A DNA stretch of 35,235 nucleotides, from the IMG/VR virus record IMGVR_UViG_2850756110_000003; one strand, given 5' to 3'. Source of the DNA: a virus (Duplodnaviria > Heunggongvirae > Uroviricota > Caudoviricetes). Below, piece after piece: positions 34,744 through 35,235 of this stretch. The translations under genes were made by a program, and so were the position numbers. The notes below the pieces were generated by a model. It ran no database searches and had not been told where the DNA came from. It was given only the letters and a program-made list of their open reading frames with translations. Position 1 is the stretch's first letter, and each line of letters starts with the position of its first letter.

Positions 34744-35094
34744 CTGTACTCCAATGACTAGTCTAAAAACTAGTATTAAGACTATCACTTATTTAAGTGA
34801 TACTGGTTGTCTGGAGATTCAGGGGGCCAGTCTACCCGTGGCATGAACTGCCAACTTCACACAGAAGAAACAATCAGATGAGTTTGCCCTTACCTCAGAA
34901 TTAACGAGCAGAATTGCCGGAGTAACAAAAAAGCGATAGATTACGCGCGGGTGCCTTTCGGCTGATGGTCGGAGGGAATACCTGAAGGCCAGATGTGGAA
35001 AGGCCCCGGAAAACATTTTTGTTTAACCGAGGCCCTAACCGTCTACCCTAAGCAAGTGATAGGTTAGCGCCTCCCCGAAAAAGGAGCAAGCGCT

Positions 35095-35235
35095 ATGTCG
35101 CAAAAATCGCTTACGGCCATCACGTTCTGCGTGACGGCAATCCTCATCATCTGGATGCTGCACGGTTCGCTGTGCGAAATACGGATGAGCTTCTGGGGAG
35201 CGGAGTTTGCGGCGTTCTTACAGTGTAAGCAGTAA
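35095..35235 (+). CDS. Hok/Gef-family-like type I toxin small membrane protein (46 aa)
   Basis: ATG at 35095 with AAGGAG 8 nt upstream; MSQKSLTAITFCVTAILIIWMLHGSLCEIRMSFWGAEFAAFLQCKQ: one transmembrane helix then the SLCEIR...AAF pattern typical of Hok/Gef/PndA/SrnB toxins (memory); structured leader just upstream. Confidence 0.55.
   Translation: MSQKSLTAITFCVTAILIIWMLHGSLCEIRMSFWGAEFAAFLQCKQ

What the first reader, a model, noticed from the sequence alone, without database searches (positions are those of the whole stretch)
34835..35235. Hok/Gef-like type I toxin ORF with a structured leader next to the IS2-disrupted ogr
A 46-codon ORF with a strong AAGGAG RBS encodes a single hydrophobic helix followed by SLCEIR...AAF, the hallmark of Hok-family toxins. 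Immediately upstream is an inverted repeat (GAGGCCCTAACC ... GGTTAGCGCCTC, 35029-35073) that could fold the mRNA as hok leaders do. The window ends at the stop codon, so any antisense RNA or overlapping mok-like frame cannot be fully assessed. It is below the 60-aa cutoff of the ORF track.
Basis: partly seen in the sequence, partly recalled or inferred. Interest (0 to 1): 0.55.

Follow-up and report, generated by a model that had tools for sequence, protein, structure and literature searches.

The report
Known Hok toxin gene in prophage
The 46-codon ORF is a genuine Hok-family membrane toxin gene with its antisense-RNA control region, sitting at the end of a P2-family prophage; the identical peptide is already annotated in over a thousand E. 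coli genomes and has been reported toxic, so the finding is correct but ordinary.

Summary
ORF 35095-35235 (46 aa) has an AAGGAG ribosome-binding site and passes Pfam HOK_GEF (29.9 bits, cutoff 22). The inverted repeat 35029-40/35062-73 is real (11 of 12 pairs) and conserved with covariation. The same DNA, at 80% coverage or more, occurs in 1214 of 5426 complete E. coli genomes, annotated "Hok/Gef family protein" beside ogr. It is also in P88-like (Xuanwuvirus) phages and Stx2 phages. The identical peptide is entry 72_1621 of a 2026 Hok catalogue, which cloned it and reports it among the toxic homologues.

It lies upstream in the leader, fully inside the window: -35 TTGCTC, 17 nt, -10 TAACCT, the -10 hexamer and spacing of the annotated sokW promoter. 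Only the 3' UTR is outside the window. A 99.8%-identical genome supplies it.

Across 20 diverged loci, the 5'-3' fold-back helix and two other long-range helices keep 96.5% pairing, with compensatory changes.

One departure: no mok-like leader ORF is conserved. A stop codon closes the hok frame upstream in all 20 loci. Folding suggests a direct anti-Shine-Dalgarno switch instead; this is inferred.

Verdict: already known, low interest.

The parts
34835..34904 (+). 3' remnant of ogr downstream of the IS2 insertion. 34835-34839 is the right copy of the CCCGT target duplication.
   Evidence: Comparison with the uninterrupted ogr of CP128578, CDS L001 2810-3070.
34914..34942 (+). Predicted hok promoter: -35 TTGCCG 34914-19, 17-nt spacer, -10 TAGATT 34937-42.
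   Evidence: TAGATT, TAGAAT or a one-base variant sits 6 nt before GGGTGCC in 19 of 20 homologous loci. It scores 8 of 12 against consensus, below the generic scan threshold. Inferred, not shown.
34949..34961 (+). Predicted hok mRNA 5' end and tac-like element (GGGUGCCUUUCGG). It pairs with the fbi-like element that lies outside the window, at window-equivalent 35287-35300.
   Evidence: The Rfam RF01794 match starts at 34949. Helix columns 1-7/366-372 are 100% paired and columns 10-13/359-362 carry compensatory changes.
34949..35007 (+). 5' stem of the 'open' conformation. The tac element pairs with GAAAGGCCCC and so traps the GGCCCC box (35002-35007), which otherwise pairs with GAGGCC.
   Evidence: Fold of the leader alone, z -3.44. 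Alternative GGCC:GGCC pairing has covariation at columns 54/89 and 56/87. Matches the R1 scheme in PMC9841398.
34990..35054 (-). Predicted Sok-like antisense RNA, about 56-65 nt. Start near 35054/35053; 10-bp stem-loop 35036-35000 followed by a UUUCC tail; 3' end between 34999 and 34990.
   Evidence: Positional homology with the annotated sokW of phage 933W and with the R1-type locus. Fold -25.6 kcal/mol, z -3.37. No expression data.
35061..35089 (-). Predicted Sok-like promoter on the minus strand: -35 TTGCTC (reverse complement of 35084-89), 17 nt, -10 TAACCT (reverse complement of 35061-66). It overlaps the hok Shine-Dalgarno sequence.
   Evidence: -10 TAACCT or TATCCT in 20 of 20 loci, with a 17-18 nt spacer. 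Same -10 hexamer and spacing as upstream of the annotated sokW start. Only 6 of 12 to consensus, and not found by the generic scan.
35029..35073 (+). It is the counterpart of the Sok-target / mok-initiation hairpin of hok leaders. Its 5' arm begins with GAGG, which is the mok Shine-Dalgarno sequence in R1.
35065..35095 (+). Alternative hairpin UAGCGCCUCC / GGAG(CAA)GCGCUA. It sequesters the hok Shine-Dalgarno sequence and the A of the AUG, and is mutually exclusive with the 35029-35073 hairpin.
   Evidence: Present in the fold of the full-length mRNA (P 0.93) and whenever the Sok target is blocked (P 0.93-0.94). 92.5% paired across 20 loci with only wobble-compatible changes.
35081..35086 (+). 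hok Shine-Dalgarno sequence AAGGAG.
   Evidence: The same GGAGC is listed as the predicted SD for 72_1621 in Table S2 of the preprint.
35095..35235 (+). hok coding sequence, 46 aa, of Hok '60% cluster 72'.
   Evidence: Identical to the product annotated WP_000078916.1 in CP128578. Identical to peptide 72_1621.
35200..35227 (+). Block within the CDS that is invariant at the nucleotide level. Positions 35200-35215 pair with the start-codon region 35095-35110.
   Evidence: Invariant columns in alignment A2. The 14-bp helix is 100% paired in 20 loci.
34993..35067 (+). 24-codon upstream ORF in the hok frame, ending at TAG 35065-67. Present here but not conserved in the family.
   Evidence: The ATG is absent from the Salmonella and Klebsiella copies.

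Best explanation
This is a complete 5' and coding portion of a hok/Sok-type type I toxin-antitoxin locus. It belongs to the 46-aa Hok subfamily called '60% cluster 72' in a 2026 catalogue. It is carried as cargo at the right end of a P88-like (Xuanwuvirus, P2-family) prophage, between ogr and the attachment site next to ihfA.

Shown by tools:
- The ORF is a Hok/Gef protein.
- The identical protein is annotated at this position in many genomes and phages.
- The leader matches the hok-leader covariance model.
- In a 99.8%-identical genome the 3' UTR holds a box complementary to the mRNA 5' end, followed by a terminator.
- The long-range helices are conserved with compensatory changes.

Inferred mechanism:
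1. A roughly 407-nt hok mRNA starts at about 34949. It is made in a closed form in which the 5' end pairs with the 3' box.
2. In that form GGCCCC (35002-07) pairs with GAGGCC (35029-34). The freed strand GCGCCUCC (35067-74) pairs with the hok Shine-Dalgarno sequence. The AUG region pairs with 35200-15.
3. Slow 3' trimming lets the 5' end refold onto GGCCCC. The 35029-35073 hairpin then forms and the local hairpin on the Shine-Dalgarno sequence dissolves.
4. A constitutive antisense RNA of about 60 nt (35054 down to about 34990) pairs with this hairpin's 5' arm and loop. That drives the anti-Shine-Dalgarno strand back onto the ribosome-binding site and probably triggers RNase III cleavage.
5. 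If the prophage DNA is lost or the unstable antisense RNA decays, Hok is made and permeabilises the inner membrane.

Unlike R1 hok, no mok leader ORF appears to be needed.
For: Protein:
- Pfam HOK_GEF 29.9 bits, above the cutoff of 22.
- PHROG 251 E 1.3e-22.
- C12, T14, L26, C27, E28 and E37 align with the family's conserved positions C16, T18, L30, C31, E32 and E41; C44 aligns with the C/Y site at position 48.
- The identical peptide 72_1621 was cloned (plasmid LRP137). It is not among the 3 of 45 tested homologues reported as non-toxic.

Distribution:
- 1214 of 5426 complete E. coli genomes carry at least 80% of 34835-35235, annotated Hok/Gef next to ogr.
- P88-like phages match at 95-97% and Stx2 phages at 84%.
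- A Salmonella genome has the same gpD-ogr-hok-ihfA-pheT context.

RNA:
- RF01794 matches 34949-35108 on the sense strand at E 1.5e-8. The same model matches an R1-type leader from its start to the hok ATG, so it models the hok leader.
- The downstream box AAGGCACCC is the reverse complement of the 5' GGGTGCCTT, and a terminator follows.
- Three long-range helices are 96.5% paired against 33-45% in slid controls, with 50 doubly changed cells against 22.7 in shuffles.
- Column 56 C>T, column 87 G>A and column 127 C>T change together in two loci. This supports both alternative pairings of GAGGCC.

Antisense gene: -35, 17 nt, -10 TAACCT is conserved in 20 of 20 loci and shares its -10 hexamer and spacing with the annotated sokW promoter. 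sokW is experimentally an antitoxin (PMC8621323).

Switch: the Shine-Dalgarno hairpin has P 0.93 in the full-length fold and 0.04 or less when the 3' end is at 35267 or shorter. It returns to 0.93-0.94 when 34990-35054 is blocked.
Against: - NCBIfam HokA (34 bits against 89) and the Hok subfamily model (21.6 against 73) are far below their cutoffs. Rfam is below its gathering score (46 against 59). This is therefore a divergent branch.
- Both promoters are weak matches to consensus, and the generic scan reports none.
- No transcript data were available for either RNA.
- The 3' UTR of this particular genome is not in the window. It was read from a 99.8%-identical genome.
- In the in-silico truncated forms the Shine-Dalgarno sequence is still mostly paired elsewhere (P unpaired 0.03-0.28). 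The 'open' state is therefore not cleanly predicted to be translatable.
- Toxicity rests on a preprint that overexpressed the CDS alone.
- The biological role (prophage retention, help with lysis, or phage exclusion) is untested.
Confidence: 0.88

Rival explanations
1. The locus follows the canonical mok-type coupling, using the 24-codon upstream ORF (ATG 34993 to TAG 35065-67) as a mok analogue. Ribosomes finishing at the TAG would melt the 35065-35095 hairpin and expose the hok ribosome-binding site. Sok would act by covering the upstream ORF's start.
For: The ORF exists in the hok frame, with GAAGG 4 nt before its ATG. Its stop codon is the first three bases of the 5' arm of the Shine-Dalgarno-sequestering hairpin. 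The predicted Sok-complementary region (34990-35054) includes the ATG. The ATG is present in the E. coli and Stx-phage subgroup.
Against: The ATG is absent from all Salmonella and Klebsiella copies, which keep every RNA element. Indels put the same ATG in another frame in E. albertii. The Shine-Dalgarno spacing is short. The ATG lies inside the 5' stem in the leader fold.
Confidence: 0.12
2. The locus is a decaying, non-functional hok relic in a crippled prophage, as the chromosomal hok loci of E. coli K-12 are reported to be mostly inactive. It is neither expressed nor toxic in its native context.
For: The prophage has lost ogr to IS2. The 3' end of the locus in this genome is unseen. The preprint notes earlier reports that chromosomal hok homologues are mostly inactive in K-12.
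Against: The IS2 edge is 80 nt upstream of the hok -35 and leaves the whole leader intact. Within 34835-35235 the only difference from CP128578 is at 34866, outside the locus. All structural elements are conserved with covariation across diverged copies, including in functional phages such as P88. The identical peptide is reported toxic.
Confidence: 0.08
3. It is a chance small ORF with a fortuitous inverted repeat.
For: None beyond the small size.
Against: Profile matches in three libraries, an RNA model match, and conservation in over a thousand genomes.
Confidence: 0.01

Closest known systems
Hok '60% cluster 72', peptide 72_1621 (Escalera-Maurer et al., bioRxiv 10.1101/2025.08.07.668861); RefSeq WP_000078916.1 'Hok/Gef family protein'
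   Same: Identical 46-aa sequence. The cluster is listed as 'high abundance'. The peptide was cloned and is not among the three non-toxic homologues out of 45 tested.
   Different: Nothing at the protein level; their CDS differs by one synonymous base. That study explicitly did not analyse mok, Sok or the mRNA structure, which are worked out here.
hok/sok (parB) of plasmid R1
   Same: Toxin fold family. Sense-leader architecture: a 5' tac element, a GGCCCC-type box that pairs with GAGG, a target hairpin, a fold-back box in the 3' UTR and a terminator. An antisense gene whose promoter overlaps the hok ribosome-binding site (scheme from PMC9841398).
   Different: Only 28% protein identity and 46 aa instead of 52. 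The hok AUG is at +147 rather than +174. The hairpin-to-AUG spacer is 10 nt shorter (21 against 31 nt). There is no ATG in the hairpin loop and no mok frame.
hokW/mokW/sokW of Stx2 phages 933W and Sp5
   Same: A prophage-borne hok locus. The antisense promoter shares the -10 hexamer TAACCT and the 17-nt spacing; the -35 is TTGCCT in sokW and TTGCTC here. sokW is experimentally an antitoxin, and hokW aids phage release (PMC8621323).
   Different: A different Hok cluster (24% identity). hokW has an annotated in-frame 19-codon mokW extension. The same Stx2 phages carry a cluster-72 copy at a second site, downstream of lom, which is unannotated in 933W.
Chromosomal hokA-E of E. coli K-12
   Same: Same Pfam family. 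The best NCBIfam match is HokA.
   Different: The score is far below the HokA equivalog cutoff (34 against 89), so it is not an orthologue. Identity to HokC, HokB and HokE is 20-24%.
Type I toxins controlled by direct Shine-Dalgarno sequestration without a leader ORF (for example aapA/IsoA of Helicobacter pylori, as contrasted with hok in PMC9841398)
   Same: The inferred logic here: successive metastable structures end by hiding the toxin's own Shine-Dalgarno sequence.
   Different: No sequence relationship. The analogy is mechanistic and inferred only.

Membership tests
Hok/Gef toxin family (Pfam PF01848) | Profile match above the curated gathering score | tested here: met
   29.9 bits against a cutoff of 22, E 4.1e-07, residues 7-44 on profile positions 5-42 of 42. 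PHROG 251 E 1.3e-22.
Hok/Gef toxin family (Pfam PF01848) | A peptide of about 50 aa with one N-terminal hydrophobic helix and the conserved C, T, L-C-E, E and C/Y positions | tested here: met
   C12, T14, L26, C27, E28, E37 and C44 align with C16, T18, L30, C31, E32, E41 and position 48 of the family logo.
Hok/Gef toxin family (Pfam PF01848) | Toxic to the cell when expressed | not testable with these tools
   Reported for the identical peptide 72_1621 under arabinose induction: 42 of 45 homologues were toxic, and the three exceptions are other peptides. Preprint; not verified here.
HokA orthologues (NCBIfam NF007290) / Hok subfamily (NF007279) | Score above the curated cutoff | tested here: not met
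   34 against 89 bits, and 21.6 against 73 bits. It is a separate branch and not HokA.
[quoted passage not shown] | Leader RNA matching the hok-leader covariance model (Rfam RF01794) | tested here: inconclusive
   Full-length match 34949-35108, E 1.5e-08, but 46 bits is below the gathering score of 59. Family members score 38-57 bits and an R1-type locus 87 bits.
[quoted passage not shown] | Long-range pairing of the 5' end with the 3' UTR (tac/fbi) that locks the full-length mRNA | tested here: met
   Tested on the 99.8%-identical locus L001 and 19 relatives. Seven pairs are 100% kept and four pairs have compensatory changes. The 3' partner of this genome itself lies outside the window.
[quoted passage not shown] | A cis-encoded antisense RNA transcribed from within the leader | tested here: inconclusive
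   Promoter-like elements are conserved in 20 of 20 loci and share their -10 hexamer and spacing with sokW. The predicted RNA folds with z -3.37. The generic promoter scan is negative, and there are no expression data.
[quoted passage not shown] | A mok leader ORF that starts in the target hairpin and is translated across the hok ribosome-binding site | tested here: not met
   The hok frame is closed by a stop 6-30 nt upstream of the ATG in 20 of 20 loci. No ATG, GTG or TTG is conserved in either other frame. The -1 frame closes at +83 in most loci.
[quoted passage not shown] | 3' processing to an active mRNA and RNase III cleavage of the duplex | not testable with these tools
   Folding with shortened 3' ends shows the expected exchange of hairpins. 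That is a prediction only.

The most novel reading that the evidence does not exclude
The cluster-72 hok loci have dispensed with mok. The conserved GAGGCC element, which is the mok Shine-Dalgarno sequence in R1, would here serve only as an anti-anti-Shine-Dalgarno strand. The fold-back switch and the Sok-like RNA would then control the hok ribosome-binding site directly, through a three-step RNA relay: 5' end / 3' box, then GGCCCC / GAGGCC, then GCGCCUCC / GGAG. That would make this abundant prophage-borne subfamily a natural variant of the textbook hok/sok mechanism.
Probability: 0.35. Interest if true: 0.4.

Novelty: already known. Interest (0 to 1): 0.15.

Why it matters
For annotation it only confirms what RefSeq and a recent catalogue already say: a Hok toxin gene sits at the ogr end of P88-like prophages.

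The modest added value is the map of the locus at the RNA level. That map covers the transcript start, the antisense gene, the fold-back partners and two competing hairpins.

The analysis also shows that this widespread subfamily has no conserved mok frame. If confirmed, hok translation control can work without translational coupling. That would be of interest to people who study type I toxin regulation and prophage retention.

Tried and rejected
An alignment query returned only 6 loci, three of them in implausible hosts and probably contaminants. I therefore gathered loci through the look-up of encoding contigs.
- I first recalled R1 mok as out of frame, then saw an in-frame ATG in an R1-type plasmid (57 nt upstream). 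I resolved this with the published numbering: mok AUG 116-118 and hok AUG 174-176, 58 nt apart and so out of frame. Both arrangements exist, so I tested all three frames.
- The -1 frame is open across hok in the window. I considered it as a mok candidate and rejected it: it has no start codon, and it closes at +83 in most relatives.
- The mini-ORF GTG 35056 to TAG is not conserved.
- The generic promoter scan found nothing. The promoter calls rest on conservation and homology only.
- The in-silico 'truncated' mRNA ending at 35292 did not open. Shorter 3' ends did.
- PADLOC has no model that matches the toxin.

Full report
**1. Observation**

The sequence shows an ORF from ATG 35095 to TAA 35233-35235. 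It encodes MSQKSLTAITFCVTAILIIWMLHGSLCEIRMSFWGAEFAAFLQCKQ. AAGGAG lies at 35081-35086, 8 nt before the ATG.

It has 11 of 12 complementary positions and one C:C mismatch.

IS2 occupies 33505-34834, with its transposase ORFs on the minus strand. It is flanked by a CCCGT duplication (33500-04 and 34835-39) and splits ogr. The rest of ogr runs to 34904. The window ends exactly at the stop codon.

**2. Identity of the ORF**

- Pfam HOK_GEF: 29.9 bits, above the gathering score of 22, E 4.1e-07.
- PHROG 251 'MokW-like host killing': E 1.3e-22 over the whole length.
- NCBIfam's best hits are HokA (34 bits, cutoff 89) and the Hok subfamily model (21.6 bits, cutoff 73). Neither is passed, so this is a divergent branch and not a HokA orthologue.

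In an alignment with Hok R1, HokB, HokC, HokE, HokW and PndA the protein is 20-28% identical to these. C12, T14, L26, C27, E28 and E37 align with the family's most conserved residues, and C44 with the C/Y site at position 48.

A protein search returned 67 relatives. All the full-length ones come from Escherichia, Shigella, Salmonella or Klebsiella. Every one that carries a source name is called Hok/Gef or HokA.

**3. It is already known**

The 401 bases of the finding occur at 80% coverage or more in 1214 of 5426 complete E. coli genomes. They are annotated 'Hok/Gef family protein' next to 'ogr/Delta-like zinc finger'.

In CP128578 the stretch is 99.8% identical. The single difference is at 34866, in ogr, so the hok ORF is identical to WP_000078916.1.

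The same stretch is 95-97% identical in P88-like Xuanwuvirus phages (Peduoviridae), where the gene is labelled 'MokW-like host killing'. It is 84% identical in many Stx2 phages.

The identical peptide is entry 72_1621 in the Hok catalogue of Escalera-Maurer et al. (bioRxiv 10.1101/2025.08.07.668861), in 60% cluster 72, a 'high abundance cluster'. It was cloned as plasmid LRP137 under an arabinose promoter. The paper states that 42 of 45 tested homologues were toxic and names the three that were not (19_179, 60_1482, 69_1540). Peptide 72_1621 is therefore among the toxic ones. [quoted passage not shown]

**4. Genomic setting**

In CP128578 the order is cargo gene, ogr, hok, then ihfA and pheT on the other strand. 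A Salmonella genome has gpD, ogr, hok, ihfA, pheT.

The locus is therefore the last gene at the right end of a P2-family prophage integrated beside ihfA.

Other members of the subfamily sit in different places:
- downstream of lom in Stx2 phages;
- next to a relaxase gene;
- in tandem arrays of two or three copies in Salmonella;
- between unrelated genes in Klebsiella oxytoca.

**5. The RNA elements**

Rfam RF01794 ('sok') matches the plus strand from 34949 to 35108 over the whole model (E 1.5e-08, 46 bits, below the gathering score of 59). The same model matches an R1-type plasmid locus on the sense strand from the leader start to the hok ATG (87 bits). In practice the model therefore describes the hok mRNA leader, and 34949 is the likely transcript start.

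TAGATT lies 6 nt upstream (34937-42), with TTGCCG 17 nt further up. TAGATT, TAGAAT or a one-base variant sits at that fixed distance in 19 of 20 related loci.

The sequence downstream of the window, read from CP128578, contains:
- a GC-rich hairpin just after the stop;
- AAGGCACCC, the exact reverse complement of the 5' GGGTGCCTT, at window-equivalent 35292-35300;
- a terminator-like stem with a T run.

I aligned 20 distinct loci of this subfamily (58-98% protein identity to the query) from transcript start to terminator. The RNAalifold consensus gave three long-range helices:
- the 5' end with the 3' box;
- the hairpin-loop region (35047-35060) with a 3' UTR segment;
- the start-codon region (35095-35110) with 35200-35215.

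Counted explicitly, these helices are 96.5% paired, against 33-45% when the partners are slid. They contain 50 doubly changed cells, against 22.7 in shuffles, and the four pairs next to the terminal helix all show compensatory changes. The third helix explains why 35200-35227 is invariant even at synonymous positions.

Its 5' arm GAGGCC has a second conserved partner, GGCCCC at 35002-35007. In two loci, column 56 C>T, column 87 G>A and column 127 C>T change together. This is what is expected if both pairings are used.

This layout matches the closed and open conformations described for R1 hok mRNA: tac/fbi, an anti-Shine-Dalgarno box, and the GAGG of mok (PMC9841398).

**6. The antisense gene is inside the window**

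On the minus strand the sequence reads TTGCTC (reverse complement of 35084-89), 17 nt, then TAACCT (reverse complement of 35061-66).

In phage 933W the annotated sokW RNA starts 7 nt after a TAACCT that follows TTGCCT by 17 nt. An R1-type locus has TTGCGC, 17 nt, TATCCT at the homologous place.

All 20 family members keep TAACCT or TATCCT with a 17-18 nt spacer.

By this homology the Sok-like RNA starts near 35054. It contains a 10-bp GC-rich stem-loop (35036-35000) and ends between 34999 and 34990. Its fold is -25.6 kcal/mol with z -3.37.

sokW has been shown experimentally to counteract HokW (PMC8621323).

Caveats: the hexamers match consensus at only 6 of 12 positions, the generic scan finds no promoter, and I have no transcript evidence.

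**7. No mok**

In R1 the mok AUG (116-118) lies in the hairpin loop, 8 nt after GAGG, and 58 nt before the hok AUG. In 933W, mokW is annotated as an in-frame 19-codon extension of hokW.

Here the hok frame is closed by TAG 35065-67, and a stop lies 6-30 nt upstream of the ATG in all 20 loci. The +1 frame closes early inside hok or just upstream of its ATG. The -1 frame has no start codon in the window and closes at +83 in most relatives.

The spacer between the hairpin and the ATG is 10 nt shorter than in R1 (21 against 31 nt).

A 24-codon upstream ORF (34993-35067) exists in the E. coli and Stx subgroup. It is missing from the Salmonella and Klebsiella copies, which keep all the RNA elements.

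The catalogue paper states that mok, Sok and the mRNA structure were not analysed. I found no paper that discusses a mok-less hok.

**8. Likely mechanism (inferred)**

Folding the reconstructed 407-nt mRNA gives the closed form. The 5' end pairs with the 3' box, and GGCCCC pairs with GAGGCC (P 0.98). The released strand UAGCGCCUCC pairs with GGAG...GCGCUA, covering the Shine-Dalgarno sequence and the A of the AUG (P 0.93).

With the 3' end shortened to 35267 or less, the 35029-35073 hairpin forms (P 0.96-1.0) and the Shine-Dalgarno hairpin disappears (P 0.04 or less). Two shorter, partial-transcript lengths depart from this. At 35180 the exchange is incomplete (hairpin P 0.80, Shine-Dalgarno hairpin 0.18). 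At 35125 the closed arrangement returns (hairpin P 0.05, Shine-Dalgarno hairpin 0.89).

If the Sok-complementary stretch 34990-35054 is made unavailable, the Shine-Dalgarno hairpin returns at every length tested (P 0.93-0.94).

The leader alone folds into the open form (z -3.44).

This suggests that the fold-back switch and the antisense RNA act on the hok ribosome-binding site directly, through an anti-Shine-Dalgarno strand rather than through a leader ORF.

Weak point: in the shortened forms the Shine-Dalgarno sequence is still mostly paired with other segments (P unpaired 0.03-0.28). The prediction of a translatable state is therefore not clean.

The outcome for the cell would be membrane damage when the antisense RNA is lost. 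That follows from what is established for the family, not from anything tested here. The role could be prophage retention, help with lysis as reported for hokW, or phage exclusion.

**9. Verdict**

The object is a member of a catalogued and annotated Hok subfamily, and the identical peptide has already been reported as toxic.

Novelty: already known. Interest is low.

The only non-trivial residue is the apparent absence of mok in this subfamily, and the direct switch that absence implies. I rate that at about one chance in three and of moderate interest to specialists.

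Noticed in passing
window 30156-33173: Two abutting ORFs (637 aa from a TTG start, and 367 aa) lie between the tail gene gpD (28108-29028) and ogr. GC content is 34% against 51% for the window. Neither has a match in Pfam, PHROGs or PADLOC. In CP128578 the same DNA (99.8% identical) is annotated as one 3120-nt 'MFS transporter' CDS, which looks doubtful. This may be unknown cargo in a P2-family variable region.
   Followed up: partly
window 33500-34839: IS2 (33505-34834, transposase on the minus strand) is inserted in ogr with a 5-bp CCCGT target duplication. 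This probably disables late-gene activation of the prophage. An IS2 in ogr next to hok is also seen in strains STEC384 and STEC379 at 96% identity.
   Followed up: partly
L004 661-798 (NC_000924 45660-45797): Phage 933W carries a second, unannotated hok gene of this 46-aa subfamily between lom and ST933Wp67. It is additional to the annotated hokW/mokW/sokW locus.
   Followed up: partly
L016, L017, L021, L022: Salmonella chromosomes hold tandem arrays of two or three copies of this hok locus, with a period of about 495 bp. Each copy has its own leader and terminator.
   Followed up: no
L005, L006, L009: Contigs assigned to a Planococcaceae MAG, a Vagococcus and Xanthomonas pisi carry enterobacterial copies of this hok gene, 98%, 98% and 72% identical at the protein level. 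These are most likely contaminating contigs in those assemblies.
   Followed up: no
L008 (Escherichia albertii), about 103 nt upstream of hok: In this one lineage, indels place the upstream ATG in the -1 frame, which then stays open across hok (about 80 codons). This gives a mok-like overlapping ORF that the rest of the subfamily lacks.
   Followed up: no
L024 344-403 (R1-type IncFII plasmid): The ATG in the target-hairpin loop is 57 nt before the hok ATG, so it is in frame. In R1 itself the published numbering gives 58 nt, which is out of frame. The frame of mok relative to hok is therefore not fixed, even among close relatives.
   Followed up: partly
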